A stretch of 64,000 nucleotides of DNA from Actinorugispora endophytica (GTDB taxonomy: Bacteria; Actinomycetota; Actinomycetes; Streptosporangiales; Streptosporangiaceae). Of the stretch, positions 7,277 through 54,128 are shown piece by piece. A model generated the notes under the pieces. That model ran no database searches. It was given only the letters and a program-made list of their open reading frames with translations, and was not told the DNA's origin. The DNA lies in assembly GCF_004363075.1 (NCBI RefSeq), contig NZ_SNYN01000005.1:187696-251695 (forward strand), written 5' to 3'. Within the stretch, counting starts at the first letter, position 1, and each line of letters opens with the position of its first letter. A program made the position numbers and the translations under genes.

Positions 7277-7381
7277 CGGAGGCTGCGCAAACCACTTTGG
7301 CACTTGGTCCGGATCTCCCCTATGCTTGACCCGTCCCCGACGGCAGGCGAAACGGGAAATGACGACTCGTTCGTCGTCGAG

Positions 7382-7454
7382 GCCCCCATCGTCTAGTGGC
7401 CTAGGACGCCGCCCTTTCAAGGCGGTAACACGGGTTCGAATCCCGTTGGGGGTA
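7382..7454 (+). tRNA. tRNA-Glu (anticodon TTC)
   Basis: Cloverleaf by eye: acceptor GCCCCCA/TGGGGGT, anticodon loop cTTTCaa, T-arm ACGGGTTCGAATCCCGT. Confidence 0.85.
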
Positions 7455-7569
7455 CTGCTCGGTTCGAAGTACTGCTGAAGGTCTGGCAGAATAGAGAACA
7501 GAGCGAAGGACGCGGAACACCTGATAGGATCGGGTTAACGCGAACGAAGCGGACAAATTGAATAAGCAA

Positions 7570-7644
7570 GGTCCTGTGGAGCAGTTTGGAGTGCTCGCCA
7601 CCCTGTCAAGGTGGAGGCCGCGGGTTCAAATCCCGTCAGGACCG
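7570..7644 (+). tRNA. tRNA-Asp (anticodon GTC)
   Basis: Acceptor GGTCCTG/CAGGACC, anticodon loop cTGTCaa, T-arm GCGGGTTCAAATCCCGT. Confidence 0.85.
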
Positions 7645-7679
7645 CTCGCCTCACTGAAAAGTGCGGCCGGGGCCAGGTA

Positions 7680-7753
7680 GCTCAGTCGGTACGAGCGTCC
7701 GCCTGAAAAGCGGAAGGTCGGCGGTTCGACCCCGCCCCTGGCCACATCCATAA
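7680..7753 (+). tRNA. tRNA-Phe (anticodon GAA)
   Basis: Acceptor GGCCAGG/CCTGGCC, D-arm GCTCAGTCGGTACGAGC, anticodon loop cTGAAaa, T-arm GGCGGTTCGACCCCGCC. Confidence 0.85.
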
Positions 7754-7772
7754 GCAGCCAGGAAGCCCGGAA

Positions 7773-7806
7773 CCCTTGCGGTTCCGGGCTTTTTTGACGA
7801 CAACGC
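7773..7806 (+). terminator. Rho-independent terminator after the tRNA cluster
   Basis: AGCCCGGAACCcttgcGGTTCCGGGCT followed by TTTTTTG. Confidence 0.7.
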
Positions 7807-7874
7807 CGACGACAACGCGGTTAGTCGAGGGCACCCCCCAGCTTCCCGAGCGTGCGCAGCGCCCGTTCGGCCCT

Positions 7875-8095
7875 CGCTCGGAATGATCATGGGCTTTCCG
7901 CCCTTTCAGACCCCGAAGCGGGCAGAAAGCCCAAGACCGCTAACGGAACCCCACGCAACGGACATCATGGGCGCGATCTTGACTCGCGCCCGCCGTCGCC
8001 GCCCGTTGTGACCTCGCGATCCGCGTGGCGTGCGGCCGAAAGACCCACCCGAAGCACCGGCACGCCGAACCACCCCCGCTCCGGCAACTCCCTAC
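7875..8095. repeat. Intergenic repeat element, copy A: a near-palindromic hairpin module plus a roughly 100-nt conserved module
   Basis: GGAATGATCAT-GGGCTTTCCGCCC...GGGCAGAAAGCCC, then ...GTGACCTCGCGATCCGCGTGGCG.GCGGCCGAAAGACCCACCCGAAGCACCGG.ACGCCGAACCACCCCCGC. It is near-identical to the element at 18150-18330. Confidence 0.6.
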
Positions 8096-8220
8096 CCCGC
8101 GTTCGGTAGTGAAGTGAAGATACTCAAAGTAGCCGATGATTACTCAACGTGAGTTTCGGGAAGGTGGTGGCCTGGGCCGCGAAGACGCGGCCGGTACGGA
8201 GCAGGGAGAGGAACCGGCAC

Positions 8221-8523
8221 ATGATGGTCCGTCGACTCGTGTCCACCGCCGTTCTCGCGGTCGCAGTTTTTTCCAGTCTGGGATTCAGTTTCGAGTCCTC
8301 GTCGTCAGACGTCGGCAACCGCATCGAATGCGCTTCCCCCTGGGGCGGCGAGACGCGCGGCGGGGTGATCATCGGCGAGCGCTGGGAGGACGACAAGGTC
8401 TCCTACCTGGTGGAGTGGGACGACGGGCGCACCGGCATCGTCACCCGGACCAAGTACTGCATCGTCGTGCCGGACGACTCGGGGTACGGGGAGTACGGCC
8501 GGTCGGTCTCCCCCACGGCGTGA
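8221..8523 (+). CDS. Hypothetical small secreted protein
   Basis: The MMVRRLVSTAVLAVAVFSSLG signal peptide is followed by a roughly 75-aa domain with 2 Cys. A GGGAGAGG RBS lies about 10 nt upstream. Confidence 0.45.
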   Translation: MMVRRLVSTAVLAVAVFSSLGFSFESSSSDVGNRIECASPWGGETRGGVIIGERWEDDKVSYLVEWDDGRTGIVTRTKYCIVVPDDSGYGEYGRSVSPTA

Positions 8524-8668
8524 TTCGGCGAGTAGGGCCGTGCCCGCGATGATCTCGACGTCGGCGTTCCCCGGAACGGACATGTCGGAACGCTGACGTC
8601 GAGATCATCGACTCCCCGCCCCGGAAACCGGCGTGAGAAGTTGATCAAGCCCGACATAATGAACGATC

Positions 8669-9686: not shown

Positions 9687-10208
9687 CTACTCGGGGAGCC
9701 TGTCCGCGTGGTCGCTCAGCCAGGCGTCCACCTGGGCGCGCTCGTAGCCGCGCAGGGCGACGCGGAAGAGGCCGTCCTTTCGCAGCTGCTCCCGGGTGAC
9801 CGGGGGCCCGGCGGACGGGTCGCCGTCGATGGTGCCGAGGACGCGGCGGGTCAGCGTGTCGACCTGCCGCCGCTCGTAGCCGCGCAGCACCACGTCGAAC
9901 GCGGGCGACCACGGCCCGAGTCCCGGGATCAGGGGCTCCTCCTGGGGGGCGCCGCCGGGGGCCGGGGCGAGGTTGGCCGCGAACCAGTCGTCGACCTGCC
10001 GCCGCTCGTAGCCGCGCGCCACCACGTCGAACGCCGGGACGGCAGCGGGCGTGCCGCCGCCCATGACCTCGGCGACGGCCGCCTCCACCTGCGTGCGCTC
10101 GTAGCCGCGCGGCACCACGTCGAACTCCGGCGCCTGCCCGTCGCCCGGTCCGATATCGCCCATGGCTGCTCCTTTATCCGGTTTTGCCTTCTCTTTGTCG
10201 TTATCCAA
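9687..10208 (-). CDS. DivIVA-domain protein with four tandem F-D-V-V-x-R-G-Y-E-R-x-Q-V-D repeats
   Basis: Four copies of the DivIVA N-terminal motif (FDVVPRGYERTQVEAAV, FDVVARGYERRQVDDWF, FDVVLRGYERRQVDTL, FRVALRGYERAQVDAWL) separated by Pro/Gly-rich linkers. Confidence 0.6.
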   Translation of the reverse strand: MDNDKEKAKPDKGAAMGDIGPGDGQAPEFDVVPRGYERTQVEAAVAEVMGGGTPAAVPAFDVVARGYERRQVDDWFAANLAPAPGGAPQEEPLIPGLGPWSPAFDVVLRGYERRQVDTLTRRVLGTIDGDPSAGPPVTREQLRKDGLFRVALRGYERAQVDAWLSDHADRLPE

Positions 10209-11526: not shown

Positions 11527-12303
11527 TTGATCGCGCGGGAACGCGTCCGGGTCTTCGTGGACGCGCGCTGGTTCCAATCGACCATCATCACCCTGATCCT
11601 GGTCAACGGGCTGGTGCTGGGTGCGGAGACCTCGCCCGGGGTGATGGCCGAGCACGGCGTCATGCTGCACCTCGTGGACGTCACGGTCCTCTCGGTGTTC
11701 GTCCTCGAACTCGCGCTGCGCGTCTTCGCCTACCGGGGGGACTTCTTCCGGGATCCGTGGAACTGGTTCGACGTGGTCATCGTCGGCATCGCGCTGCTGC
11801 CCACGTCGGGCCCGTTCGCGGTGCTGCGGGTCCTCCGGGTGCTGCGCGTGCTCCGGCTGCTGTCGGTGATCCCCACCCTCCGGCACGTCGTCGCGGGCCT
11901 GCTCAAGGCGCTGCCGGGGATGGCCTCCATCGCGCTTCTGGTGGGGCTGCTGCTGTACGTGGCCGCGGTGATGGCCACCACGCTGTTCCAGGACATCTCC
12001 CCCGAGTACTTCGGCGACCTGTCCAGCTCGCTGATCACCCTGTTCCAGATCATGACGGGGGACGGCTGGGGCGACATGGCCAAGACCGTGACCGAGCACC
12101 ACCCCTGGGCCTGGTTCTTCTTCGTCTGCTACATCCTCGCCTCCACCTTCATCGCCCTGAACCTCTTCATCGCGGTGGCCGTGGAGGCGCTGGAGCACGA
12201 GGCCGACGAGGACAAGGAGGAGGCCGACTCCCAGCACGCCGAACTCCTCGCCGAGCTGCGCGCCCTGCGCGCCGAGGTCGCCGCGATGCGCGAACGCGCC
12301 TGA
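11527..12303 (+). CDS. Voltage-gated ion channel, single 6-TM domain (ion-transport family; start uncertain)
   Basis: The S4 segment carries an R-x-x repeat (VLRVLRVLRVLRLL), the pore region reads TLFQIMTGDGWGDM, and the C-terminal tail is coiled-coil. Confidence 0.65.
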   Translation: MIARERVRVFVDARWFQSTIITLILVNGLVLGAETSPGVMAEHGVMLHLVDVTVLSVFVLELALRVFAYRGDFFRDPWNWFDVVIVGIALLPTSGPFAVLRVLRVLRVLRLLSVIPTLRHVVAGLLKALPGMASIALLVGLLLYVAAVMATTLFQDISPEYFGDLSSSLITLFQIMTGDGWGDMAKTVTEHHPWAWFFFVCYILASTFIALNLFIAVAVEALEHEADEDKEEADSQHAELLAELRALRAEVAAMRERA

Positions 12304-12589
12304 GGGGCTTCGGGAACGCCCACTCCCCGACCCTCGGAATACCCCTTGGGGGTATGGTGGTTCGTGAGGGGGAGAACCGAGGCCGTGGTCGGGGCGGGAG
12401 CCCCTGGGAGGAAGGTGCGGTTGTGGGCGTTCTGGGAAGGCTGGGGGTCTACGGGCTGGTGCTCGTGGCCGGGTTCGGGGGCGCGTTCTGGGTGGGGGCG
12501 CTGGTCGGGCCGGTCGTGCCCGAACCCCCGGCCGCGCACGAGCAGGAGCAGGTCCGGCACGAGGACTCGGGTTCGCACGAGGAGGCGCG

Positions 12590-14842
12590 ATGAGCGGCGG
12601 AACGGCGACGGACCGGGTCGAACTGGCCATCGGCGGCATGACCTGCGCGTCGTGTGCCAACCGGGTCGAACGCAAGCTCAACAAGCTCGACGGCGTGACC
12701 GCGAGCGTCAACTACGCCACCGAGAAGGCGCGGGTCGAGTACGGCGGTGACGTCACCACCGACGACCTGATCGCCCAGGTCGAGAAGGCCGGGTACACCG
12801 CCGCGCTGCCCCGGCCGCCCCGGTCCGAGGACGCCGGGAGCGGCGCCGCCGAGGCGGACCCCGTCGGGGCCCTGCGCACCCGGCTCGTCGTCAGCGCGCT
12901 GCTCTCCGCACCCGTCGTCGCCATGGCGATGGTCCCGGCGCTGCAGTTCACCTACTGGCAGTGGGCGTCGCTGACCCTGGCCGCCCCGGTCCTGGTGTGG
13001 GGCGCGCTGCCGTTCCACGCCGCCGCGTGGAAGAACCTCAGGCTCGGCGAGGCCACCATGGACACCCTCGTGTCCATGGGCACCCTGGCCGCCTTCGCGT
13101 GGTCGCTGTACGCGCTGTTCCTGGGGAGCGCGGGCGTCCCCGGGATGACGCACCCGTTCGAGTTCACCATCGCGCGCGTGGACGGCTCCGCCAACATCTA
13201 CCTGGAGGTCGCCGCCGGGGTCACCACCTTCATCCTGGCCGGGCGCTACTTCGAGGCCCGCTCCAAGCGCAGGGCCGGGGCGGCGCTGCGCGCCCTCATG
13301 GAACTCGGCGCCAAGGAGGTGTCCCGCCTGCGCGACGGCCGCGAGGAGCGCGTCAGCGTGGACGCCCTCGCCGTCGGGGACCGCTTCGTGGTCCGCCCCG
13401 GGGAGAAGATCGCCACCGACGGCGCCGTCACCGAGGGCACGTCCGCCGTCGACATGAGCATGCTCACCGGTGAGTCCGTGCCGGTCGAGGTCGGTCCCGG
13501 AGACACCGTCGCGGGCGCCACCGTCAACGCGGGCGGCCGGATCGTCGTGCGCGCCACCCGCGTGGGCTCCGACACCCGGCTCGCCCAGATGGCCCGCCTG
13601 GTGGAGGAGGCGCAGAGCGGCAAGGCCGAGATCCAGCGCCTCGCCGACCGCGTCTCGGGCGTGTTCGTCCCGGTCGTGATCGTCCTGGCCGTGGCCACGC
13701 TCGGCTTCTGGCTGGGCACGGGCGGCCCGGTGGCGGCCGCGTTCACCGCCGCCGTCGCGGTGCTCATCATCGCCTGCCCGTGCGCCCTGGGCCTGGCCAC
13801 CCCCACCGCGCTGCTGGTGGGGACGGGTCGCGGCGCCCAGCTCGGCATCCTCGTCAAGGGCCCCGAGGTCCTGGAGAGCACCCGCCGCGTCGACACGGTC
13901 GTGCTCGACAAGACCGGCACCGTCACCACCGGCCGCATGACGCTGACCGGTGTGCGCACCGCCGACGGCGAGGACGAGGCCGAGGTGCTGCGCCTGGCGG
14001 GGGCGGTGGAGAACGCCTCCGAGCACCCCGTCGCCCAGGCGGTCGCGCGCGGCGCGGCCGAGCGGACCGGCCGACTCGAACCGGTGTCGGACTTCGCGAG
14101 CACCGAGGGCCTGGGGGTGCACGGGGTGGTGGACGGCCACGCCGTCGTCGTGGGGCGGGCCGCGCTGCTGGCCGAGTGGTCCGTCACCCTGCCCGAGGAG
14201 CTGGAGAGGGCCAAGGCCGACGCCGAGGCCGGGGGCGCCACCGCGGTCGCGGTCGGCTGGGACGGGCGCGCCCGCGCGGTCCTGACCGTCGCCGACGCGG
14301 TCAAGCCGACCAGTGCCCGGGCCGTCGGGCAGCTCCGCTCCCTGGGACTCACCCCGATCCTGCTCACCGGCGACAACGAGGCGGTGGCGCGCTCGGTGGC
14401 CGCGCGGGTCGGCATCGAGCAGGTCATCGCGGAGGTGCTGCCCGCGGACAAGGTGGACGTGGTCAAGCGGCTCCAGGACGAGGGGCGGACCGTCGCGATG
14501 GTCGGCGACGGCGTGAACGACGCCGCGGCCCTGGCGCAGGCCGACCTCGGCCTGGCGATGGGGACCGGCACCGACGCCGCGATCGAGGCGGGCGACCTCA
14601 CCCTGGTCCGCGGCGACCTGCGCGCCGCCGCCGACGCCATCCGGCTGTCCCGCCGCACCCTGGGCATCATCAGGGGCAACCTGTTCTGGGCCTTCGCCTA
14701 CAACGTGGCCGCCCTGCCGCTGGCCGCGGCGGGTCTGCTCAACCCCATGATCGCGGGTGCGGCCATGGCGTTCTCCAGCGTCTTCGTCGTCAGCAACAGC
14801 CTTCGGCTGCGCGGATTCAAGCCGATGGACGACGCCTCCTGA
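12590..14842 (+). CDS. copA: Copper-translocating P1B-type ATPase with an N-terminal HMA domain
   Basis: [15 protein letters not shown] (HMA), CPC in TM6, [21 protein letters not shown]. Confidence 0.9.
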
Positions 14843-14899
14843 GGCCCCGGAGGGCGCGGGCGTCCGGGCACCGGTGGAGACCCGGTGCCCGGACGCGGA

Positions 14900-15544
14900 T
14901 CAGACCGGGCGGGCCGGCGGGCGGTCCTCACCGGTGATCCACGTGTACACCGCCGCCGCGGTCGACTCGACCGGGGCGGTGGTGGTGTCCAGCAGGGACA
15001 GCGGCGGGGACAGCCGCTCGGCGTTCTCGTCGATCCAGGCCGCGTACTCCAGCATCTCCGCGATACGCGGCTCGTCCCACTGGCGCCAGGCCGGGCGGTT
15101 CCGCAACCGCTCGGCCAGCACGTCCGGATCGCAGACCAGGGACAGGTAGCGGATCTCGGAGAACAGCGCGCGCTCGGGCAGCGGCTCGAACTCGGGCGGC
15201 GCGACCGTGCCGCACAGCACCGCGGGACGGCCGCTCTGGTGGATCATCGCGATCATCCGCAGCCAGGCCGAACGGAACAGCCGGTGGTCGTCCGCGGGGT
15301 CGCGGAGCCCGGCCAGCCACAGCACGTCCTGTTCGAGCAGCACGTACCGGTCCGCCAGCCAGGGCGCCAGAAGTCGGGCGACCGTCGACTTCCCGGTGCC
15401 GCTGGGGCCGGTCACGCAGTACACCGGCAACCGCAGGAACGGCTGCCGGTGGCCGCAGTCGGCACAGCAGACCACGGGGCCGTCGGGATCGACCACAGGG
15501 ACATCGGTGCGCGCGCCGCAGCGCGCGCAGATCAACAGGTTCAC
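14900..15544 (-). CDS. P-loop NTPase/kinase-like protein with an N-terminal zinc ribbon
   Basis: CARCG...CCADCG Cys pairs are followed by a Walker A motif (GPSGTGKST). Confidence 0.55.
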   Translation of the reverse strand: MNLLICARCGARTDVPVVDPDGPVVCCADCGHRQPFLRLPVYCVTGPSGTGKSTVARLLAPWLADRYVLLEQDVLWLAGLRDPADDHRLFRSAWLRMIAMIHQSGRPAVLCGTVAPPEFEPLPERALFSEIRYLSLVCDPDVLAERLRNRPAWRQWDEPRIAEMLEYAAWIDENAERLSPPLSLLDTTTAPVESTAAAVYTWITGEDRPPARPV

Positions 15545-15559
15545 TGGAAGCCGGTCGAA

Positions 15560-15898
15560 TCAGTCGAAGAGGTCTTCCAGGAAACTCTTGCGACGCTTCT
15601 GGTGGCCGTACGGGCGGGGTGAGTCGGAGTAGCCGTACGGGCCGGGGGAGTCGGGACGGCCCCGGTAGGGCTTGGGCGAGTCGGGCCGGTGGTGGTAGCC
15701 CGGAGCGGGCGCGCCGTAGGGCGCGGCCGCGGCCGGGGGCGGCGGGGGCGGTGCGGTGTAGTGGCGCTGCTCGGCGGCGGCGATCTGCTCCATCTCACCG
15801 GCGTCGAGGAAGACCCCGCGGCAGCGCTCGCACTGGTCGATGTGGACGCCCATGCGGTCGTAGGTGTGCATTCGGCCTTGGCATTTGGGACAAGTCAC
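15560..15898 (-). CDS. TFIIB-type zinc-ribbon protein with a Pro/Tyr-rich tail
   Basis: MTCPKCQGRMHTYDRMGVHIDQCERCRGVFLD, followed by PYG/PYR repeats. Confidence 0.6.
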   Translation of the reverse strand: MTCPKCQGRMHTYDRMGVHIDQCERCRGVFLDAGEMEQIAAAEQRHYTAPPPPPPAAAAPYGAPAPGYHHRPDSPKPYRGRPDSPGPYGYSDSPRPYGHQKRRKSFLEDLFD

Positions 15899-16135
15899 GA
15901 GCCCATGTTACGCAAGGGAGCGGTCAAGGGGGGCTAAGTAGGCGGGCGGGTTGATCACGAGGTGCTTTCCCGGGCGCCGTTCACCGAGGATCGGCAGGTC
16001 GCGAGGGTGGACGGGGCCGGAAAGGGGCGAAGACACCCCGGCTGGGGCGTTCGCGATGTCCTGCGGCCTTCTAAAATCCGAAGTTGGCGCTGTGCCGGTG
16101 TGGCCGCGCTCGTCTCCGGACCGAGGAAGCCGCCC

Positions 16136-17839
16136 ATGAGCACTGAACCCCCCGAGCCCTCCGATTCCCCCGAGCCTCCGGATCTCCTCCTCTCCGGTCG
16201 GTACCGGTTGTCCCGACTCATCGGCGAGGGCGGGATGGGGCGCGTCTGGGAGGGCGTCGACGAACTCCTGGACCGGCCGGTGGCCATCAAGGAGCTCACC
16301 ATCAACGAGCACCTGCCCCCCAGGGAGATCGAGGTGATGCGGGCGCGGATGCTGCGCGAGGCCCGCAGCGCCGCCCAGCTCAGCCACCCGTCGATCATCA
16401 CCGTGTTCGACGTGGTGGAGAAGGACGGCTTCCCGTGGATCGTCATGGAGCTCGTCCGGGGGCAGTCCCTCAGCGAGATCATCAAGGAGCAGGGGTCCAT
16501 CAGCCCCGAGCGCGCCGCGAACATCGGCCTCCAGGTGGCGGCGGGCCTGGCGGTCGCGCACCAGCGCGGGATCGTGCACCGCGACATCAAGCCCGGCAAC
16601 GTGCTCGTGGCCAAGGGCGACCGCGCGGTCCTCACGGACTTCGGCATCGCCCGTCTGGAGGGCAGCAGCCGCCTCACCCGCACCGGGAACCTCCTGGGAT
16701 CGCCCAGCTACCTCGCGCCCGAGCAGGCGCGGGGCGAGGCCGCCGGGCCGGCCACCGACATGTGGTCGCTCGGCACCACCCTGTACGCGGCGGTGCACGG
16801 CTCCCCGCCGTTCCAGCGCTCCACCCCGATGGCGACGCTCACCGCGGTCGTGGTCGACGACGTGCCCCCGCCCCTCAAGGCGGGCCCGCTGCGGCCGCTC
16901 CTGGAGGAGCTGCTCGACAAGGACCCGGAGGGGCGGCCCACCGTCCACGAGGCCGCCGAGACGCTCCAGCAGATCGTCATGGAGGCGCCGCGCGGGGCGC
17001 TGGCCGCCCCCGAACCGCCGGTCCGGGCGGAGCGGACCATGACCATCCCGGTGGGGTCCGTGGCGGCGGAGCCCGAGGTCTCGGAGAACACCGACTCGCT
17101 GCCCGTCCTGCCGCCGGGGAAGGGGCGCGGCGGTGGCGGGCTCGGCCTCCTCGCCCTGACCGGGCTGGCGGTGCTGGTGGTGGCGGCGGTGATCGCGGCC
17201 GTGGTGCTCCTGGTCCCCCCTGCCGGCGGCGCCGACCCCGGCGGGTCGGACCCCGGTGGGGCGGAACCGTCCACCGGGGCCGTGCCCGAGGAGTCGCGGT
17301 CCGCGGTGGAGTCGGCCCCCGAGTCGTCCGCTCCGCCCGAGCCCAGCCCTGAGGGAGAGGAGGCGGACGACGACGAGGAGGAGGACGACTACAGCGGTCC
17401 GCCGCTGGACCGGCACGAGGACTCCACCGGCTTCTCCCTCGACGTCCCCGAGGACTGGGACGTCGACCGCGAGGGCAGCAGCGTCTTCTTCCGCAACCCC
17501 GACGGCGGCTACCTCCAGGTCGACCAGACCGACTCCCCGGGGCCCGACGCCAAGGCGGACTGGGAGGTCCAGGAGCAGGGCGCCGGGGGGCGCTTCCCGA
17601 ACTACGACCTGATCGGGATCGAGGACGTCGACGACGCCTCCATGGACCGCTACGCCACCGCCGCCGACTGGGAGTTCACCTTCACCAGCGGCGACCGCGA
17701 GATGCACGCGGTGAACCGGGGCTTCCACACCGAGGAGAAGGGCTACGCGCTGTTCCTGGTGTACCCGGAGGACGACTGGGAGGACACCGGGGCCGAGATC
17801 CTCGACAGGATGTCCGAGAGCTTCGAACCGGCGGCCTGA
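16136..17839 (+). CDS. Ser/Thr protein kinase with TM and an extracytoplasmic C-terminal domain
   Basis: The ATG at 16136 is preceded by GAGGAAG. Hanks motifs are present: GEGGMGRVW, AIK, HRDIKPGN, DFG, SPSYLAPE. A TM helix lies near residues 350-375. Confidence 0.85.
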   Translation: MSTEPPEPSDSPEPPDLLLSGRYRLSRLIGEGGMGRVWEGVDELLDRPVAIKELTINEHLPPREIEVMRARMLREARSAAQLSHPSIITVFDVVEKDGFPWIVMELVRGQSLSEIIKEQGSISPERAANIGLQVAAGLAVAHQRGIVHRDIKPGNVLVAKGDRAVLTDFGIARLEGSSRLTRTGNLLGSPSYLAPEQARGEAAGPATDMWSLGTTLYAAVHGSPPFQRSTPMATLTAVVVDDVPPPLKAGPLRPLLEELLDKDPEGRPTVHEAAETLQQIVMEAPRGALAAPEPPVRAERTMTIPVGSVAAEPEVSENTDSLPVLPPGKGRGGGGLGLLALTGLAVLVVAAVIAAVVLLVPPAGGADPGGSDPGGAEPSTGAVPEESRSAVESAPESSAPPEPSPEGEEADDDEEEDDYSGPPLDRHEDSTGFSLDVPEDWDVDREGSSVFFRNPDGGYLQVDQTDSPGPDAKADWEVQEQGAGGRFPNYDLIGIEDVDDASMDRYATAADWEFTFTSGDREMHAVNRGFHTEEKGYALFLVYPEDDWEDTGAEILDRMSESFEPAA

Positions 17840-17864
17840 CAAGCCGGGCGGGGAGCAGGGCGAA

Positions 17865-17899
17865 GGGCCGGGACGCCCGCACGCGTCCCGGCCCTTCTA
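17865..17899 (+). terminator. Terminator hairpin after the kinase gene
   Basis: GGGCCGGGACGCccgcaGCGTCCCGGCCC followed by TTCTAT. Confidence 0.5.
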
Positions 17900-18149
17900 T
17901 GGGGGGCTCAGCCTCAGGGCGAGCCGTTCCGGGTAAGTGTTCGGCCGCCGGACCGGGTCCGGCGGGCTCCCTCCGTGGTGTGAACGGTGGCCGCCCGGGT
18001 GGGAGGAGTGGGAGGACGGCCACCGCACAACGAGGGGATCTGTCGTCGACTTTTTGGGAGCGCTCCCAAGTGGTCGGTTCCCATTATTTGTGACTTGCTT
18101 CATATATGTCAATGGGTCCCGTGGGTCCGCTTTACGAGGATTTCGTTGA

Positions 18150-18330
18150 CGGTCGTGGGCTTTCTGCCCGTTTCGGGGCCTTGAAGGGCGGAAAGCCCGT
18201 GATCATTCCGGGTGGGAGCGGGGCCGGCCCGCACCCGCCGCCGCCCGCCGTGACCTCGCGATCCGCGTGGCGAGAGGCCGAAGGACCCACCCGAAGCACC
18301 GGTGCGCGAAACACCCCCGCGCCGGCGCCT
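18150..18330. repeat. Intergenic repeat element, copy B (same family as 7875-8095)
   Basis: GGGCTTTCTGCCC...GGGCGGAAAGCCC-GTGATCATTCC, then GTGACCTCGCGATCCGCGTGGCGAGAGGCCGAAGGACCCACCCGAAGCACCGGTGCGCGAAACACCCCCGC. The hairpin-plus-ATGATCAT module is inverted relative to copy A. Confidence 0.6.
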
Positions 18331-18332
18331 CC

Positions 18333-19727
18333 CTAGCGGCGGGTCAGGTACTTCCCGGCGGCCTCGGTGTAGCGTTCGCGGACCCAGGGGGTGGGGGCGG
18401 CCTCGAAGCGCTCGGTGCGGGACGGCTGCTCGGTCCAGTGCGGGGGCTCGCCGGCCCCCGAGAGGACCCAGGCGGCCTGGCGGGCCGCTCCGTCGGCGAC
18501 GCGCTCGCCGGGGCCCGGGGCCAGCACGGGTACCCCGAACACTCCGGGGGCGATCCGGCGCACCGCCTCGGACCGCGCGGCGCCGCCGATCAGCCGGACG
18601 TTCTCGACCGCGACGCCCTGCGCGGCCAGGGCGTCCAGGCAGGCCGCCATCCCGCACAGCACGCCCTCCACCGCGGCCCGCGCGAGGTTCTCCCGGGTGG
18701 AGTTGGCCAGGGTCAGCCCGTGCAGCGCTCCCGAGGAGTCGGGCAGGTTGGGCGTGCGCTCGCCCTCCAGGTAGGGGACGAACACCAGCCCCCGCGCCCC
18801 GGGCTCGGCGCTCAGCGCCAGGTCGTCGAGCCCGGCCGGGGTCACGCCGAGCATCCGCGCCGCCGCGTCCAGCACGCGGGCCGCGTTGAGCGTGCACACC
18901 AGCGGCAGGAACGCCCCGGTCGCGTCGGCGAACCCGGCCACGAGCCCGCTGGGGTCGTTCGCCTGCCGGGCGGAGCGCGCGAACGCGGTGCCCGAGGTGC
19001 CCAGGGACACCACCACGTCGTCGCCCGCGGTCAGTCCCAGGGACGCCGCCGCGTTGTCGCCCGCGCCCGGGCCGATCACCGGTCCGCCGCCGCGCGCGAC
19101 GGCCTCCGAGGGGCCCGCCACCCGGGGGAGCAGGACGTCGTGCCCCAGGGCGCGGGTCAGCAGGTCGCGGCGGTAGTCGTCGGTGCGCCCGTCGAAGTAG
19201 CCGGTCCCCGAGGCGTCGGAGCGGTCGGTGACGAGGTCGGCGATGTCGGTGGAGCCGGACAGCCTCCAGGTCAGCCAGTCGTGCGGGAGGCACACCGCCG
19301 CCGTCCTGGCGGCGGCCCCGGGTTCGTGCTCGGCCAGCCAGCGCAGCTTGGTGACGGTGAAGGAGGCCACCGGGACGGCGCCCACCGCCTCGGACCAGTA
19401 CTCCGCCCCCAGCTCGGCCACCAGGTCCGACGCGGCCCCGGCCGAGCGCGTGTCGTTCCACAGCAGCGCGGGCCGGACGACCCGGCCGCGCTCGTCGAGG
19501 CAGATCATGCCGTGCTGCTGGCCCGCGATGCTGACCGCGTCCACGTCGTCGAGCCCGCCGGCCTCGGCCAGGGCCTCGCCCAGCGCGTCCCACCAGTGGG
19601 CCGGGTCGACCTCGGTCCCGCCCGGATGGCCGGACCGCCCGTTGCGGACCAGGCGGCCGGTCCCGGCGTCGCGGACCACGACCTTGCAGGACTGGGTTGA
19701 GGAGTCCACTCCGGCGACCAGTGCCAT
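18333..19727 (-). CDS. xylB: Xylulokinase (FGGY carbohydrate kinase)
   Basis: [18 protein letters not shown]...[10 protein letters not shown]...LLWNDTRS... are FGGY N- and C-terminal domain signatures. Confidence 0.85.
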
Positions 19728-19845
19728 GACCCACCATTTCCGTCGAGCGGTTCGAACCGGCGCGCATCAACCTATCCGCTGCCGTGAGCCGGTGACGAGG
19801 GGTGCGGGCCGCCGGATCCGCCGACCGGCGCGGCTTCGGGGCGCC

Positions 19846-20841
19846 TCAGGCCAGCAGGCTCCGGGCCGTCTCCGCGTCGGTGACCACGGTGGAGACCAGC
19901 CCGCTGCGCAGCATCACCCCCACGGCCTCGGCCTTGTCCGGCCCCCCGGCCACCGCGATGACCTCGGGGACGGCGCGCAGCTGCTCGACGCCGACGCCGA
20001 TCAGGCGGTCCGTGAGGGGGGTGCGCACCCACCGGCCCTCGACGTCGAACAGCTGGCCGGAGACCTCGGCGCGCACCCCCAGGTCCCGGTACTCCTCGCG
20101 CGCCTCCGGATCGAGGCTCTGGTAGACGGTGGAGCTCCGCTCGTCCCAGCCGCCGATGGCCACGACCGCCTTGGTCAGCCGGTCGAAGTGGGCGAACGCC
20201 GAGGCGATGCCGGGGTCCTCGCGCAGGGCGCGCGCGGTGGTGGCGTCGGGCACGATCAGCGGCGCGTAGATGGGGTAGGCGGTCCCGCCGGACAGCTGGG
20301 CGGCCCGGCGCACGGTCTCCACCGAGCCCTCGTCCCCCGTGCGGTGCGAGAAGACCCCGCCCAGCTGCACCGTCGTGCACCGCGCGAGCCGGGTCAGCTC
20401 GGCTCCCATGATGTTGATGGTGCGGCCCCAGGCCAGGCCGAGCACGTCGCCGTCCTCGACGATCTCGCCGAGCAGGTCGGCGGCCGTGGCCCCCAGCTGC
20501 TGGCGGGTCTGGACGGGGTCCTCGAACCCGGTCACGACGATGGCGCGGTCCAGGCCGTGGGCGGCGCGCAGCCGGTCGGAGAGGTCCGCGTCGATCTGCG
20601 AGGGCAGCCGGATGGAGATCCGGACGATGCCGGTGTCGCGGGCGATGTCGAGCGCGCGGGCCACCTTGAACCGGCTGAGCCCGAACTCCTCCGCGATCTC
20701 CACCTTGGAGCGCCCGTCCAGGTAGAACCGGCGCGCGATGGTGGAGACCAGGACGGTCTCCGCGGGCCCTCTGGTCGTGGCCTTCTCCTTCTGCGGGGGG
20801 TTCACCGGGGTGTCGGGCCGCCGCGCGTCAGGCGCGCTCAT
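19846..20841 (-). CDS. SorC/DeoR-family sugar-binding transcriptional regulator
   Basis: An N-terminal HTH (VEIAEEFGLSRFKVARAL) is followed by a SorC sugar-binding domain. Confidence 0.8.
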   Translation of the reverse strand: MSAPDARRPDTPVNPPQKEKATTRGPAETVLVSTIARRFYLDGRSKVEIAEEFGLSRFKVARALDIARDTGIVRISIRLPSQIDADLSDRLRAAHGLDRAIVVTGFEDPVQTRQQLGATAADLLGEIVEDGDVLGLAWGRTINIMGAELTRLARCTTVQLGGVFSHRTGDEGSVETVRRAAQLSGGTAYPIYAPLIVPDATTARALREDPGIASAFAHFDRLTKAVVAIGGWDERSSTVYQSLDPEAREEYRDLGVRAEVSGQLFDVEGRWVRTPLTDRLIGVGVEQLRAVPEVIAVAGGPDKAEAVGVMLRSGLVSTVVTDAETARSLLA

Positions 20842-20849
20842 CTGATAAC

Positions 20850-20950
20850 CAAACCGCTCATTCGCAAATCATACGTTGACATCCCGTTTCCGATGGGCTT
20901 TCAATGGCATCAATCAAATGTGTGATCTACCGCTCATTTGAGCGGTCTAC
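20850..20950. promoter_or_regulatory. Divergent promoter/operator region with two AACCGCTCATT boxes
   Basis: This lower-GC 100-bp stretch lies between the divergent sorC-like and dehydrogenase genes. The ACCGCTCA motif occurs at about 20853 and again within the palindrome ACCGCTCAtttGAGCGGT at about 20930. Confidence 0.4.
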
Positions 20951-21965
20951 CGTGGGAGTACGTGTGCGCGCAGCGATCATCGAACAGCCCGGTTCCATCA
21001 CCGTCGGCGACCGCCCCGACCCCTCGCCCGCCCCCGACGGAGTCGTGCTGAAGGTGGGCGCCTGCGGGATCTGCGGCACCGACCTGCACATCGCCGACGG
21101 CGAGTTCCCGCCCAGCCCCTACCCGCTGGTCCCCGGACACGAGTTCGCCGGGGAGGTCGTCGCGGTCGGTGAGCACGCCCCCGGCGGCCTGCGCGTCGGC
21201 GACCGCGTCGCCGTGGACCCGTCGCTCTTCTGCGGCCACTGCCGTTTCTGCCGGGCCGGGCGCGGAAACCTCTGCGCGAACTGGGGCGCCATCGGCGACA
21301 CCGTGGACGGCGCCTTCGCCGAGTACGTGGCCGCGCCCGCCGTGAACTGCTACCGGATCCCCGGGGAGATGACCTACCGGCAGGCCGCCGCCGTCGAGCC
21401 GCTGTCCTGCGCCGTGCACGGCGTGCGCCGCGTCGGCGTGCGGCCCGGTGAGCGCTTCCTCCTGGTCGGCGCCGGGACGATGGGCCTGCTCCTGCAGCAG
21501 CTGCTCCAGGACGGCGGGGCCGCCGTCACCATGGTCGACCGCAACCGCGACCGCCTCAAGATCGCCGCCGACCTCGGCGCCGTCGCCACCGCGACCGACG
21601 TCGCCGACCTGGGCGACGAGCGCTTCGAGGCCGCCGTGGACGTCACCGGTGCGCCGCCCGCCATCGAGGCCGCGTTCGGCGCGCTCCAGCGCGGCGGCCG
21701 CCTGCTCGTCTTCGGGGTCGCCGCCGACGACGCCCGCGTGGACCTCTCCCCGTTCCGCATCTACAACGACGAGATCACCGTCGTGGGCTCCATGGCCGTG
21801 CTCAACAGCTACGGCGCCGCCCTCGACCTCCTCGCCTCGGGCCGGGTGCGCGTCGACCCGCTGCTCAGCCACGCCCTGCCGCTCGGGGACTTCCCCGCGG
21901 CCCTCGACCTCATGCGCTCGGGAGCGGGCGTGAAGGTGCAGGTCACGCCCGGTACCGACAACTGA
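20949..21965 (+). CDS. Zn-dependent polyol dehydrogenase (MDR superfamily; sorbitol/xylitol dehydrogenase-like; start approximate)
   Basis: GACGICGTDLHI, GHEFAGEV, a structural-Zn Cys cluster (CGHCRFCRAGRGNLC) and a Rossmann motif (LLVGAGTMG). Confidence 0.8.
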   Translation, partial: TVGVRVRAAIIEQPGSITVGDRPDPSPAPDGVVLKVGACGICGTDLHIADGEFPPSPYPLVPGHEFAGEVVAVGEHAPGGLRVGDRVAVDPSLFCGHCRFCRAGRGNLCANWGAIGDTVDGAFAEYVAAPAVNCYRIPGEMTYRQAAAVEPLSCAVHGVRRVGVRPGERFLLVGAGTMGLLLQQLLQDGGAAVTMVDRNRDRLKIAADLGAVATATDVADLGDERFEAAVDVTGAPPAIEAAFGALQRGGRLLVFGVAADDARVDLSPFRIYNDEITVVGSMAVLNSYGAALDLLASGRVRVDPLLSHALPLGDFPAALDLMRSGAGVKVQVTPGTDN

Positions 21966-22003
21966 TCCCGCGTCGGCAACGCCCCTGGAGGAAGGAGGAC
22001 CCG

Positions 22004-23359
22004 ATGCGCACGACGCTGCCCCCGCTCGCCGCGCTCTGCACGGGAACGCTGCTGCTCTCCGGCTGCGCCGGAGCCGGAGCGCTCCCGGCGGGCACGGACG
22101 GCACCACGCTCGTCATCGCCATCGTCGCCAACCCGCAGATGCAGGACGCCGTCTCGCTCCAGTCGGAGTTCGAGGCCGAGAACCCGGGCGTCTCCGTGAA
22201 GTTCGTCAGCCTGCCCGAGAACGAGGCCCGCGCCAAGATCACCACCTCCATCGCCACCGGCGGCGGCGAGTTCGACGCGGTCATGATCAGCAACTACGAG
22301 ACCCGCCAGTGGGCCGGGTACGGCTGGCTGGAGAACCTCCAGCCCTACATCGACGCCACCGACGGCTACGACGACGCCGACTTCATCCCCTCCATCCGCG
22401 AGGACCTCTCCCACGAGGGCGACATGTACTCCGTCCCCTTCTACGGGGAGTCCTCCTTCCTCGCCTACCGCACCGACCTCTTCGAGGAGGCGGGCCTGGA
22501 GATGCCGGAGAACCCCACCTGGGACGAGGTCGCGGAGCTGGCCGCCGAACTCGACGACCCCGAGGCGGGGGTCGCGGGCGTCTGCCTGCGCGGCCTGGCG
22601 GGCTGGGGCGAGGTGCTGGCCCCGTTCAACAGCCTCCTCAACACCTTCGGCGGGCGCTGGTACGACGAGGACTGGAACGCCCAGCTGGACTCGCCCGAGT
22701 TCCGCGAGGCCGCCGGGTTCTACGTGGACCTGGTCCGCGAGCACGGCCAGGCCGGCGCGGCCAACAGCGGGTTCGGCGACTGCCTGAACCGCTACAGCCA
22801 GGGCCGCGCCGCGATGTTCTACGACTCCACCTCCATGGTCAGCACCGTCGAGGACCCCGACTCCAGCACCGTCGTCGGCCTGAGCGGCTACGCCCCCGCG
22901 CCCGTCGCCGAGAGCGGCTACGGGGGATGGCTCTACACCTGGTCGCTGGGCATCCCGGCCACGTCCGAGCACAAGGACGAGGCGTGGGCGTTCCTGTCCT
23001 GGATGACCGACAAGGACTACATCCGCACCGTCGGCGAGGAGTACGGCTGGCAGCGCGTCCCGCCCGGCAACCGCCTGTCCACCTTCGAGATCCCCGAGTA
23101 CCAGGAGGCCGCCGGAGCCTACGCCGGCCCCATGCTCCAGGGCATCGAGAACGCGGACCCCGAGAACCCCGGGACGCGGCCGGTCCCCTACACCGGCATC
23201 GGCTTCCTCGCCATCCCCGAGTTCCAGGACCTGGGCACCCGGGTCAGCCAGCAGCTCAGCGCCGCGATCGCCGGGCGCGTCACCGTGGACGAGGCGTTGG
23301 AGCAGAGCCAGCGGTACGCCCAGACCGTGGGAGACGCGTACAAGGAGGAGGACCGATGA
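22004..23359 (+). CDS. ABC sugar/polyol transporter substrate-binding lipoprotein (family 1)
   Basis: Lipobox (LLLSGCAG) and a family-1 extracellular solute-binding-protein fold. Confidence 0.8.
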   Translation: MRTTLPPLAALCTGTLLLSGCAGAGALPAGTDGTTLVIAIVANPQMQDAVSLQSEFEAENPGVSVKFVSLPENEARAKITTSIATGGGEFDAVMISNYETRQWAGYGWLENLQPYIDATDGYDDADFIPSIREDLSHEGDMYSVPFYGESSFLAYRTDLFEEAGLEMPENPTWDEVAELAAELDDPEAGVAGVCLRGLAGWGEVLAPFNSLLNTFGGRWYDEDWNAQLDSPEFREAAGFYVDLVREHGQAGAANSGFGDCLNRYSQGRAAMFYDSTSMVSTVEDPDSSTVVGLSGYAPAPVAESGYGGWLYTWSLGIPATSEHKDEAWAFLSWMTDKDYIRTVGEEYGWQRVPPGNRLSTFEIPEYQEAAGAYAGPMLQGIENADPENPGTRPVPYTGIGFLAIPEFQDLGTRVSQQLSAAIAGRVTVDEALEQSQRYAQTVGDAYKEEDR

Positions 23360-33778: not shown

Positions 33779-34122
33779 CCGGTCTGTTGAGCCCCTCCAC
33801 GCGGGAGCCGGATCCGGGAAGCGGCCGCCGGTTCCGGAACCGTCCGCAGGGCGGAATCCACCGAGCGGCCCTTCCGGCCGCAACGCCCTGTCCGCGACCG
33901 GTCACCTGCCCGGTCGGGACGCCCGGTCTCCCGGACGTGCCGACCGGACCGGCAGCGCCCGCATCCGTCCTCCGCGATCGTCGCGGGTGACGTTCATGCG
34001 CTTCTAGGACGTGCCGGGGTGAAATCCGGTTCCCACCTTTTGCGGTGTTTTCTCCGCAGTGGACGCGGGCCGCGGCCGGGCCGGGGGGCGCCGCCCGGGG
34101 TCCGGCCCGTCGCCGGTGCGGG

Positions 34123-37026: not shown

Positions 37027-37070
37027 GCGCGGCACTCTGCCAGTGAACGGTGACAGGAAGGCGAACCTCC

Positions 37071-37132
37071 GCCGATCTTGACCTTTTCGGGGTCTCGACT
37101 GCGGCTGAGACCCCGAAAAGGTCAAGATCGGC
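37071..37132. repeat. Palindromic intergenic repeat (family P), copy 1; contains the stop codon of the DUF559 gene
   Basis: GCCGATCTTGACCTTTTCGGGGTCTC-gactgcggct-GAGACCCCGAAAAGGTCAAGATCGGC. Confidence 0.7.
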
Positions 37133-38060
37133 GAGGAAGTGAGAGCTCGCGCCGGAGGTAGGCGAGGATCGCGGTGTTCGCGGGGTGGAGGTCGGCCTGG
37201 GTGCAGACGTAGAGGTCCCAGCCGAGGTCCTTGACGGCGTTGCGGCGTGCCGCGTCCTCGCGCCACCTTTCGCGGTGCACGACCCCGTCGTACTCGACGG
37301 CGATCCGCTGTTCCCGGTAGCCGAGGTCGAGGCGGGCCACGTGTCGGCCGGACGGGGCGAACAGGTTGATCTGGGCCTCGGGGCGGGGAAGCCCCGCCCG
37401 TACGAGCTTCATCCGCAGCCGGGACTCGCCGGGGGACTCGCTCGCGGGTTCGGCCTGCTCCGCGACGAGGACGGCGCGTCGGATCCCGCGCCACCCGGCG
37501 AAGCGTTCGTGTCGCGCGTGGTCGGCCAGCTCCTCGGGTGTGAACAACCCGAGGTGGGTGAGCGCGTCCACCGCGACGACCGCTTCCGTGTCGTTCCCGC
37601 CCGGACCGGTCCTGCGCGCGAGGTCGAGTCCGGTGCGCAGGGGGGTGGTGGCGAGCAACCCCGCGAACCGCGTCACGTCTTCGGGGAGCAGCTCGGCGCG
37701 CCGGATCGACAGGCCGCGCCGCGGTCTCATCGGAGCACCTCGCGGCAGGGTGATCTCCAGGGGGTCGTTCCACCGGCGGATGTCCGCCCCGTACAGCCAG
37801 GCCGCGGTGCTCCCGCTGAGGACGGCCCCCTCCGGCAGGACGAGCGCGAGCGCGTGGACGCGCTGCTCGATGGTGTCGGGCAGTCCGGCGAACACGTAGA
37901 CGTCGCGCAGCAGCCGACGCCAGCAGCCGCTCCGCAGCTGCTCCGCGGTCAACGTCCCCTTCCGGCACGCTTCGGTGCCGCGGAACGGGCCTGTTCTGAG
38001 GGGTTCGGGAATCTCCGGGAGGGTTGGCATGTGTCCAGGGTGCGGCCGACCGCCGTCCAC
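37122..38060 (-). CDS. DUF559 (Vsr-like endonuclease domain) protein with an AbiEi-like N-terminal region
   Basis: The C-terminus reads EQRIAVEYDGVVHRERWREDAARRNAVKDLGWDLYVCT, typical of actinobacterial DUF559 proteins. Start is GTG at 38060 or ATG at 38030. Confidence 0.7.
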   Translation of the reverse strand: MDGGRPHPGHMPTLPEIPEPLRTGPFRGTEACRKGTLTAEQLRSGCWRRLLRDVYVFAGLPDTIEQRVHALALVLPEGAVLSGSTAAWLYGADIRRWNDPLEITLPRGAPMRPRRGLSIRRAELLPEDVTRFAGLLATTPLRTGLDLARRTGPGGNDTEAVVAVDALTHLGLFTPEELADHARHERFAGWRGIRRAVLVAEQAEPASESPGESRLRMKLVRAGLPRPEAQINLFAPSGRHVARLDLGYREQRIAVEYDGVVHRERWREDAARRNAVKDLGWDLYVCTQADLHPANTAILAYLRRELSLPRRS

Positions 38061-38080: not shown

Positions 38081-38152
38081 CCCTTGTTGATCTTGACCTT
38101 TTCGGGGTCTCAACCGCGGTTGAGACCCCGAAAAGGTCAAGATCAACAAGGG
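38081..38152. repeat. Palindromic intergenic repeat (family P), copy 2; a perfect 72-bp palindrome
   Basis: CCCTTGTTGATCTTGACCTTTTCGGGGTCTCAACCGCGGTTGAGACCCCGAAAAGGTCAAGATCAACAAGGG. Confidence 0.75.
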
Positions 38153-53947: not shown

Positions 53948-54128
53948 CCGGGTTCCGCGTCGAAGCCCTCGATGCTCTTGACGCCATCGCCCCACGAAAC
54001 GGACGTCGCAGGGCGTTGACGTCGAGATCACCGAAGGCGGCGGTGCGAATCCGGCGGTCGAACCTCGGCGAGGCCCGCCGGGCGGGGGGCCGGGAACGCC
54101 CGGCCCCCTCGGCCCACCGGCGGACACG

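What the first reader, a model, noticed from the sequence alone, without database searches (positions are those of the whole stretch)
7875..8095. Second repeat family: a near-palindromic hairpin plus a conserved roughly 100-nt module, present after the tRNA cluster and again at 18.15-18.33 kb
Both copies sit in noncoding gaps. Copy A follows the tRNA-Phe terminator. Copy B lies between the convergent kinase and xylB genes. Both share a GGGCTTTC(C/T)GCCC...GGGC(A/G)GAAAGCCC hairpin next to ATGATCAT. They also share a roughly 100-nt block reading GTGACCTCGCGATCCGCGTGGCG..GGCCGAA.GACCCACCCGAAGCACCGG..CG...A.CACCCCCGC. The hairpin module is inverted between the two copies. This could be a small RNA gene family or a miniature mobile element.
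Basis: seen in the sequence. Interest (0 to 1): 0.5.

Follow-up and report, generated by a model that had tools for sequence, protein, structure and literature searches.

The report
Two-copy hairpin-plus-linker intergenic repeat
Two non-coding gaps 10 kb apart in this Actinorugispora endophytica segment share a strand-specific hairpin, flipped between the copies, next to a roughly 110-base unstructured block; the repeat is real but looks like an ordinary species-restricted intergenic repeat, not a conserved RNA gene.

Summary
Module C (7985-8096 and 18227-18336, same orientation) is 87% identical over 102 nt (E about 3e-30). Module H (7866-7951 and 18138-18223) is 86% identical only when one copy is reverse-complemented (E about 6e-20). 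The 64-kb window holds no further copy.

The window comes from Actinorugispora endophytica. Neither module is present at the matching positions in Nocardiopsis ansamitocini or Thermobifida halotolerans. Neither matches any Rfam family, plasmid or phage record.

H folds into a 25-pair hairpin on one strand only: the minus strand at copy A and the plus strand at copy B. On that strand every non-Watson-Crick position is a G.U pair (50 of 50 cells paired, against 40 of 50 on the other strand). H has no U-tract. It weakly resembles another palindrome family in the window whose copies sit at stop codons.

C shows no stable fold and no conserved reading frame, and its differences fit plain drift.

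Best reading, at moderate confidence: a REP/BIME-like or TRIT-like mosaic in which H is an RNA-level hairpin repeat and C is linker DNA copied with it. A small-RNA gene, a single duplication scar and a transposon remnant remain possible. I could not measure the genome-wide copy number. Interest is low to moderate.

The parts
7866..7951 (-). Module H, copy A. An 86-nt quasi-palindrome. On the minus strand it forms a 25-pair hairpin (core GGGCUUUCUGCCC ... GGGCGGAAAGCCC, with a small apical stem-loop in the 16-nt centre). The stem is followed by AUGAUCAUUCC, so there is no U-tract.
   Evidence: MFE is -53.7 kcal/mol on the minus strand against -37.2 on the plus strand for 7855-7960.
7952..7984 (.). 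Spacer present only in copy A. An 8-bp stem-loop (GGGCGCGA / TCGCGCCC) runs from the spacer into the start of module C.
   Evidence: Read. No counterpart in copy B.
7985..8096 (+). Module C, copy A. A roughly 110-nt non-coding block (GTGACCTCGCGATCCGCGTGGCG ... GACCCACCCGAAGCACCGG ... CTCCCTA). It has the same orientation as copy B.
   Evidence: (D11).
18138..18223 (+). Module H, copy B, inverted relative to copy A. The well-paired (sense) hairpin is on the plus strand.
   Evidence: MFE is -48.9 (plus) against -36.5 (minus).
18227..18336 (+). Module C, copy B. It abuts H directly. Its last bases, CTAG, overlap the xylB stop codon on the minus strand.
7671..7796 (+). Context for copy A: tRNA-Phe plus a hairpin and T-run read as its own terminator. 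Similarity to Thermobifida halotolerans stops right after this point.
   Evidence: tRNA-Phe. (hairpin and T-run, read by eye; the terminator scan did not list it). (90% identity over window 7300-7792, then none).
18333..19727 (-). Context for copy B: xylB (xylulokinase). Its product is 100% identical to the Actinorugispora endophytica protein.
37070..37133 (.). Possibly related palindrome family D9. Other copies are at 38081-38152 and about 58820-58887. Its arms share GATC-NTG-RSC-TTT and TTCGGGGTC with H.
   Evidence: best non-self H hits, E 0.09-0.2; single-arm p 0.0005-0.015.

Best explanation
This is a species-restricted, low-copy mosaic intergenic repeat built from two separable modules.

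Module H is a long quasi-palindrome that works as a single-stranded, most likely RNA, hairpin on one defined strand: minus at copy A, plus at copy B. I place it in the same general class as the other sequence-conserved palindromes that sit at stop codons in this window. That class also includes mycobacterial TRIT and enterobacterial REP: hairpins without a U-tract that block read-through or protect RNA 3' ends, and that spread as repeats in either orientation.

Module C is non-coding, unstructured linker or passenger DNA, comparable to the non-palindromic motifs of BIME mosaics. It was copied together with H between two variable intergenic sites 10 kb apart.

Shown: the repeat, the inversion of H, the strand asymmetry of H, the lack of structure and coding signal in C, and the absence of both modules from the two relatives examined.

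Inferred: that H acts at the RNA level as a terminator or insulator, that C is passive, and that H can be re-inserted as an independent unit.
For: 1. H is strand-specific. On the sense strand 50 of 50 cells form standard pairs. On the opposite strand 40 of 50 do. All 7 non-Watson-Crick pair positions are G.U on the same strand. Four changes between the copies are A-U to G-U, and one is a G-C to A-U double change.
2. The energy gap between the strands is 12-16 kcal/mol at both loci.
3. H is truly inverted relative to C, including its outer stem and flanks.
4. The other repeated palindromes in the window (D9, D16) lie 0-24 nt from stop codons. The D9 copies are the best non-self hits of the H profile.
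5. C folds no better than shuffles on either strand. It carries a 1-nt indel after which nucleotide similarity continues.
6. ORFs across the repeat have low GC3: 0.70 for the 85-aa ORF 7852-8109 that spans copy A, against 0.87-0.99 for real genes.
7. The 13 differences in C are spread so that the 23- and 19-nt perfect runs are about what 87% identity predicts (my estimate).
8. Both copies lie where relatives differ. A RimK-like gene sits in N. ansamitocini where the copy B gap is. Similarity to T. halotolerans stops right after the tRNA-Phe hairpin and T-run.
9. The gene next to copy A has no homologue outside this species.
10. TRIT shows that actinobacteria can carry a genus-restricted, sequence-conserved palindromic terminator-like repeat: 147 copies, mostly bidirectional (PMC3152330).
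Against: - Only two copies are visible, and they are 10 kb apart. This fits a single local duplication as well as it fits a repeat family.
- The genome outside the window could not be searched. The NCBI assembly of this species did not come up in the look-ups.
- H lies 127 and 135 nt from the nearest stop codon or tRNA end, unlike the D9 and D16 palindromes.
- At both loci the nearest gene reading toward H meets the weaker, antisense version of the hairpin.
- H has no U-tract. The title of PMC3993855 states that mycobacterial RNA polymerase requires a U-tract at intrinsic terminators. Termination by H is therefore not assured.
- The link between H and D9 rests on short arm similarities and is marginal.
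Confidence: 0.4

Rival explanations
1. A one-off complex local duplication with no function. During a rearrangement, for example the loss of the RimK-like gene at site B or the gain of the species-specific block at site A, about 200 nt of intergenic DNA was copied between the two sites. A template switch or a two-fragment insertion copied H from the opposite strand. The copies have since drifted.
For: - Only two copies exist, 10 kb apart.
- H and C have the same divergence, 86% and 87%, as expected for one event.
- The differences in C look neutral.
- Both sites are rearrangement points relative to other genera.
- No homologue was found anywhere else.
Against: - The changes in H since the split all keep pairing on one strand, which suggests continued selection on the hairpin.
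- The spacer differs between the copies: 33 nt in A and about 3 nt in B.
- Neutral non-coding DNA surviving to 13% divergence is not the default in bacteria.
- A Logan contig of the same genome ends inside C at window position 8070. The longest exact stretch shared by A and B that I can read in the alignment is only about 23 nt. If Logan's assembly word is about 31 nt (from my memory, not checked here), copy B alone would not cause that break. This is a weak hint of a third copy.
Confidence: 0.3
2. Small-RNA paralogues. The minus-strand reading of C followed by the H hairpin is a roughly 200-230-nt transcript. At copy A it would be a free-standing sRNA ending at the sense H hairpin. At copy B it would be a 3'-UTR-derived RNA of xylB ending at H.
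For: - On the minus strand C is followed by a stable hairpin at both loci.
- At copy B, C begins exactly at the xylB stop codon, so it is almost certainly transcribed as a 3' UTR.
- H shows RNA-type G.U asymmetry.
- Small minus-strand stems in C tolerate the observed changes. The loop change in GGUC(U/C)UUCGGCC is one example (my reading).
Against: - C has no fold stability beyond shuffles (z +1.9 for A and -1.1 for B on the minus strand).
- No compensatory change is seen in C.
- Rfam has no match.
- No promoter-like site lies upstream of C on the minus strand at copy A.
- At copy B the hairpin faces this transcript in its weaker orientation.
- There is no conservation in N. ansamitocini or T. 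halotolerans.
Confidence: 0.17
3. A remnant of a transposable element, either a MITE or a solo end of an insertion sequence that targets or carries the hairpin. H would be a subterminal hairpin and C the terminal non-coding end.
For: - Both copies sit in variable DNA.
- H occurs in either orientation.
- An 8-bp direct repeat, CGCCCGTT, flanks H plus spacer in copy A (7860-7867 and 8000-8007, read).
Against: - I saw no terminal inverted repeats at the unit ends (by eye).
- No flanking duplication exists in copy B.
- An 8-mer repeat in 73% GC DNA within 140 nt is weak evidence.
- No transposase was found among the ORFs scanned near the copies.
- There is no match in plasmid or phage records.
- C lacks the strong structure expected of transposon guide-RNA scaffolds.
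Confidence: 0.1

Closest known systems
TRIT (Tuberculosis Rho-independent terminator motif) of Mycobacterium (Gardner et al. 2011, PMC3152330)
   Same: - Found in an actinobacterium.
- A sequence-conserved, GC-rich palindromic hairpin repeated at many loci.
- Restricted to one genus.
- Lies near gene ends, and no classical U-tract is emphasised.
- The D9 and D16 palindromes of this window sit at or within 24 nt of stop codons in the same way.
   Different: - TRIT has 147 copies, is largely bidirectional, and centres about 8 nt inside the coding sequence.
- H is seen twice, is strongly one-stranded, lies 127-135 nt from the nearest gene end, and is coupled to a 110-nt non-palindromic block.
- I did not compare the sequences, because no TRIT model was available.
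REP / BIME / REPIN elements of proteobacteria, with RAYT transposases
   Same: - Imperfect extragenic palindromes found in both orientations.
- In BIMEs they are combined with conserved non-palindromic linker motifs into mosaics.
- Proposed roles include transcript 3'-end protection and termination.
   Different: - REPs are 20-40 bp, are present in hundreds of copies, and carry a GTAG or CGTC tag (PMC3733652).
- H is 86 nt with a 25-pair stem and has no conserved GTAG or CGTC.
- Its copy number is unknown, and no RAYT gene was seen.
Canonical intrinsic (Rho-independent) terminators
   Same: A stable GC-rich hairpin in an intergenic region, between convergent genes at copy B.
   Different: H has no U-tract after the stem. 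The scans found no terminator-like site at H.
MITEs (miniature inverted-repeat transposable elements)
   Same: A small non-coding repeat of roughly 200-235 nt in intergenic DNA that relatives lack.
   Different: No terminal inverted repeats, no consistent target-site duplication, and internal module orientation that differs between the copies.

Membership tests
Any Rfam 15 RNA family | Covariance-model match at or near the family's gathering score | tested here: not met
   The gathering scan of the whole window found only 3 tRNAs. Permissive scans of both loci gave only chance-level hits, E at least 0.35 and far below gathering scores.
Structured small RNA (generic) | Fold more stable than shuffled sequence, and pairs kept through compensatory changes | tested here: inconclusive
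   Met for H: z from -2.7 to -3.7, and 25 pairs with 100% of cells paired on one strand, including 1 double and 4 single compatible changes. Not met for C: z from -1.3 to +1.9. Two sequences give no statistical power; 229 of 500 shuffles reach the observed covariation.
REP / REPIN | Conserved GTAG or CGTC tetranucleotide at one end of the palindrome | tested here: not met
   Neither tag is conserved at the stem base. Copy A has none. Copy B has one GACG 5 nt outside the stem that copy A lacks (sequences). The defining feature is taken from PMC3733652.
REP / REPIN | High copy number (tens to hundreds) in extragenic space | not testable with these tools
   There are two copies in 64 kb.
REP / REPIN | A cognate RAYT (Y1 transposase) gene flanked by the repeats | not testable with these tools
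   No such gene is among the ORFs scanned near the copies. The whole genome was not available.
MITE | Terminal inverted repeats at the unit ends | tested here: not met
   The ends of the unit (7861-7890 against 8066-8096, and 18138-18160 against 18306-18336) show no inverted repeat beyond short GC-rich words. This is by eye inspection.
MITE | Target-site duplication flanking each copy | tested here: inconclusive
   CGCCCGTT occurs at 7860-7867 and 8000-8007, flanking H plus spacer in copy A. Copy B has no equivalent.
Canonical intrinsic terminator | GC-rich hairpin followed directly by a U-rich tract | tested here: not met
   The terminator scan found nothing at H in either locus. The tails are AUGAUCAUUCC and GUGAUCAUUCC.
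TRIT-like palindromic terminator repeats | Sequence-conserved palindrome positioned at the stop codon of genes | tested here: not met
   H lies 127 nt from the xylB stop and 135 nt from the tRNA-Phe end. The D9 and D16 palindromes do sit 0-24 nt from stops. Sequence membership in TRIT itself was not tested.
Protein-coding gene or pseudogene fragment | Conserved reading frame, gene-like codon bias, or similarity to a neighbouring gene in relatives | tested here: not met
   A 1-nt indel is followed by continued nucleotide similarity. GC3 is 0.70 for ORF 7852-8109 against 0.87-0.99 in genes. Similarity of copy B to the N. ansamitocini RimK-like 5' region is not significant (p=0.15).

The most novel reading that the evidence does not exclude
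H, together with the D9 palindromes of this window, could belong to a previously undescribed, Nocardiopsaceae-restricted superfamily of long, strand-specific palindromic repeats carrying an internal GATC. These would spread as independent units in either orientation, sometimes dragging linker blocks such as C. A so-far unidentified enzyme would mobilise them. One candidate worth testing is the AbiEi-like ORF at 37122-38060, which is bracketed by two D9 palindromes in the way REPs bracket RAYT genes.
Probability: 0.1. Interest if true: 0.6.

Novelty: new member of a known kind. Interest (0 to 1): 0.25.

Why it matters
If the best reading holds, this adds one more lineage-restricted palindromic repeat to a class already known from enterobacteria (REP/BIME) and mycobacteria (TRIT). 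It would be useful mainly for annotating transcript ends and rearrangement points in Nocardiopsaceae genomes.

Two details are worth a specialist's glance:
- The hairpin is built for one strand only, and that strand flips between the two copies.
- It travels with a 110-nt non-palindromic block.

Only if many copies and a dedicated mobilising enzyme were found would it bear on the open question of how such repeats spread in high-GC Gram-positive bacteria.

Tried and rejected
1. Known RNA family. Rfam at gathering threshold and in permissive mode gave nothing.

2. Homologues elsewhere.
- Plasmid and phage blastn found nothing (and for the D9 palindrome).
- Three viral scans found nothing.
- A genome-collection scan for GGCCGAANGACCCACCCGAAG gave 0 hits.
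- A metagenome scan for GACCTCGCGATCCGCGTGGCG gave 30 hits with no similarity to C beyond the 21-mer. From reading the flanks, most look like coding sequence in which the word reads Asp-Leu-Ala-Ile-Arg-Val-Ala.

3. Source genome. Exact-protein look-ups did not return the NCBI assembly. Only a 1.8-kb Logan contig came back.

4. C as the degraded 5' end of the RimK-like gene that N. ansamitocini has at site B. Copy B is not significantly similar (p=0.15). Copy A's p=0.004 rests on a GC-rich low-complexity stretch. Rejected.

5. C or H as coding sequence. No conserved frame exists, there is an indel, and GC3 is low. Rejected.

6. The 10.2-kb interval between the direct C copies as an integrated element. 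Window 11527-18336 of that interval is syntenic with N. ansamitocini, there is no tRNA-Phe 3'-end repeat, and no integrase turned up among the ORFs scanned with Pfam. Rejected.

7. Similarity extending beyond the modules into the xylB 3' end or the flanks. Not significant.

8. H as an invertible switch. I saw no flanking inverted repeats shared by both copies (by eye). Rejected.

9. My own hairpin-finding script was faulty and missed known palindromes. I replaced it with the repeat finder.

Full report
**Observation.**
The two loci are as described. Within the window the shared sequence splits into two modules.

- Module C is direct. 7993-8094 against 18235-18335 is 87% identical over 102 nt, E=2.7e-30 (D11). 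A two-sequence profile extends it to 7985-8096 and 18227-18337.
- Module H matches only when one copy is reverse-complemented. 7879-7951 against 18210-18138 is 86% over 73 nt, E=5.6e-20 (I1: 91-nt arms, 80% complementary).

Because H is itself a near-palindrome, I checked that the inversion is not an illusion. The same-orientation alignment is much weaker (77% over 48 nt, E=0.04). An oriented profile scores 90 and 86.5 bits in one orientation against 16 and 15 bits in the other. The core words of both modules occur exactly twice in 64 kb, with none expected from shuffles.

**Source and context.**
- The xylB product is 100% identical to the Actinorugispora endophytica xylulokinase. The window has 73% G+C.
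- Copy A lies in the 476-nt gap between tRNA-Phe and a small gene at 8221-8523. By eye, tRNA-Phe is followed by its own hairpin and T-run. The terminator scan did not list that site.
- The small gene has no homologue outside this species.
- Copy B lies in the 493-nt gap between a Ser/Thr kinase gene and xylB, which converge.
- No transposase or integrase turned up among the ORFs I scanned with Pfam near the two copies.

**Comparison with relatives.**
- Window 11527-25181 is syntenic with Nocardiopsis ansamitocini. That species has a RimK-like gene exactly where the copy B gap lies, and it has neither H nor C.
- In Thermobifida halotolerans the tRNA Glu-Asp-Phe cluster and the hairpin after tRNA-Phe are 90% identical to window 7300-7792. 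Similarity then stops abruptly.
- Both copies therefore sit in DNA that differs between genera.
- Rfam, plasmid, phage and viral-contig searches gave no hit.
- A scan of one genome per species for a 21-mer of C gave 0 hits. The 30 metagenome hits to another 21-mer of C show no similarity to C beyond the word itself.
- The NCBI assembly of the source species did not come up in the look-ups. Copy number outside the window remains unknown.

**Module H.**
On the minus strand at A and the plus strand at B, H folds into the same 25-pair hairpin with a small apical stem-loop.
- On that strand all 50 cells (25 pairs in 2 copies) are standard pairs. On the complementary strand only 40 of 50 are.
- All 7 positions that are not Watson-Crick are G.U on the same strand.
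- The differences that arose between the copies are four A-U to G-U changes and one G-C to A-U double change. None breaks a pair.
- Minimum free energies differ by 12-16 kcal/mol between the strands at both loci.
- With two sequences the covariation controls have no power. If G.U and A.C outcomes were equally likely at each of 7 sites, the one-sidedness would have a chance of about 1 in 64 (my estimate).

H is therefore best read as a single-stranded, most likely RNA, element with a defined sense strand, and that strand is opposite at the two loci. It has no U-tract, and the terminator scan does not pick it up.

**Relation to other palindromes in the window.**
- Two further repeated palindrome families exist. 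D9 has copies at 37070-37133, 38081-38152 and about 58820-58887. D16 has copies at 8547-8610 and 53965-54034.
- They lie 0-24 nt from stop codons.
- The D9 copies are the best non-self hits of the H profile (E 0.09-0.2).
- Single arms of H and D9 share GATC-NTG-RSC-TTT and TTCGGGGTC (p 0.0005-0.015, but these comparisons are not independent). D16 shows no such similarity.
- The loci I fetched from three relatives hold ordinary GC-rich hairpins but none of these families.

A distant relationship between H and D9 is possible but not proven.

**Module C.**
- Neither strand folds better than shuffled sequence (z from -1.3 to +1.9).
- There is a 1-nt indel after which nucleotide similarity continues, so no reading frame is conserved.
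- GC3 of the 85-aa ORF 7852-8109 that spans copy A is 0.70, against 0.87-0.99 for genes.
- The 13 differences are spread such that perfect runs of 23 and 19 nt are about what 87% identity predicts (my estimate).
- Similarity does not extend beyond the block.
- C is not a remnant of the RimK-like gene.

On present evidence C looks like passively copied non-coding DNA.

**Mechanism.**
The best-supported reading is a mosaic intergenic repeat.
- H is a strand-specific RNA hairpin of the palindromic-repeat class. The closest analogues are TRIT in mycobacteria (147 genus-restricted, mostly bidirectional copies near gene ends; PMC3152330) and REP/BIME in enterobacteria.
- C is a non-palindromic linker copied with it.
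- The sense hairpin would block plus-strand read-through into the antisense of xylB at copy B. It would block minus-strand read-through into the antisense of the tRNA cluster at copy A. This step is inferred, not shown.
- The title of PMC3993855 states that mycobacterial RNA polymerase requires a U-tract at intrinsic terminators. Termination by H is therefore uncertain.

Rivals are a one-off complex duplication without function (0.30), minus-strand sRNA paralogues made of C plus an H terminator (0.17), and a transposon remnant (0.10).

The equal divergence of H and C and the 10-kb spacing favour a single local event. The pair-preserving changes in H argue against pure drift. So, weakly, does a Logan contig of the same genome that breaks inside C at window 8070.

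**Verdict.**
The feature is real and correctly described, and it is confined to one species as far as I could search. There is no evidence for a conserved RNA gene or a classical miniature transposon. It is most likely a new member of the known class of palindromic intergenic repeats. Interest is low to moderate. The decisive test, copy number and distribution in the complete genome, could not be run here.

Noticed in passing
window 37070-37133, 38081-38152, 37122-38060: Two nearly identical long palindromes (27- and 36-bp perfect arms, GATCTTGACCTTTTCGGGGTCTC...) bracket a 312-aa minus-strand ORF. The ORF has a weak AbiEi_1 hit and no NCBIfam name. The layout recalls REPs bracketing a RAYT gene. 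A third, more diverged copy at about 58820-58887 starts at the stop codon of ORF 58239-58823.
   Followed up: partly
window 8547-8610 and 53965-54034: A second palindrome family (GATGATCTCGACGTC...GACGTCGAGATCATC, 74% identical between copies). Each copy lies 18-24 nt after a stop codon: the species-only small gene at 8221-8523 and a PLD-domain gene.
   Followed up: partly
window 17862-18112, minus strand: A strong promoter-like site (TTGACA, 18 nt, AATAAT; 11 of 12 matches) at 18112-18083 points away from the repeat. By eye it would drive a roughly 210-nt non-coding transcript. That transcript would contain a hairpin with a C-rich loop (about 17988-18027) and end at a GC-rich hairpin at 17866-17895. 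This is a candidate small RNA. It has no Rfam match.
   Followed up: partly
window 17840-18332, compared with L001 11436-12290: N. ansamitocini has a 284-aa RimK-like gene between the kinase gene and xylB. A. endophytica lacks it and has the hairpin-rich gap that holds copy B instead.
   Followed up: yes
window 7793 to about 11380: The block after the tRNA-Phe hairpin has no counterpart at the same position in T. halotolerans or N. ansamitocini. It holds the species-only gene at 8221-8523, then CorA, a DivIVA-like ORF and an AviRa-type rRNA methyltransferase. No integrase and no repeat of the tRNA 3' end were found.
   Followed up: partly
window 34118-36312: Six tandem 366-nt repeats (75-87% identical to the reference copy) inside a large minus-strand ORF. 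They encode repeated units of about 122 aa.
   Followed up: no
window 9726-10130: Tandem repeats of 132 nt (one spacing is 93 nt; up to 94% identical) inside the DivIVA-like minus-strand ORF 9687-10208. The Logan contig of this genome ends inside them.
   Followed up: no
L099 (Logan SRR8552498), start corresponds to window 8070: A short-read assembly contig of the same genome begins inside module C. The longest exact stretch shared by copies A and B that I can read in the alignment is about 23 nt. The break may therefore reflect a third, closer copy elsewhere in the genome, or simply poor coverage of GC-rich DNA.
   Followed up: partly
L004-L062 (contigs CAWGFZ01..., Acidobacteriaceae MAG): The unspecific hairpin scan turned up a high-copy palindromic repeat in one Acidobacteriaceae genome (GGCTTTCCGCCCACTGC...GCAGTGGGCGGAAAGCC, with conserved flanks, about two dozen loci). 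It is unrelated to H apart from the stem word.
   Followed up: no
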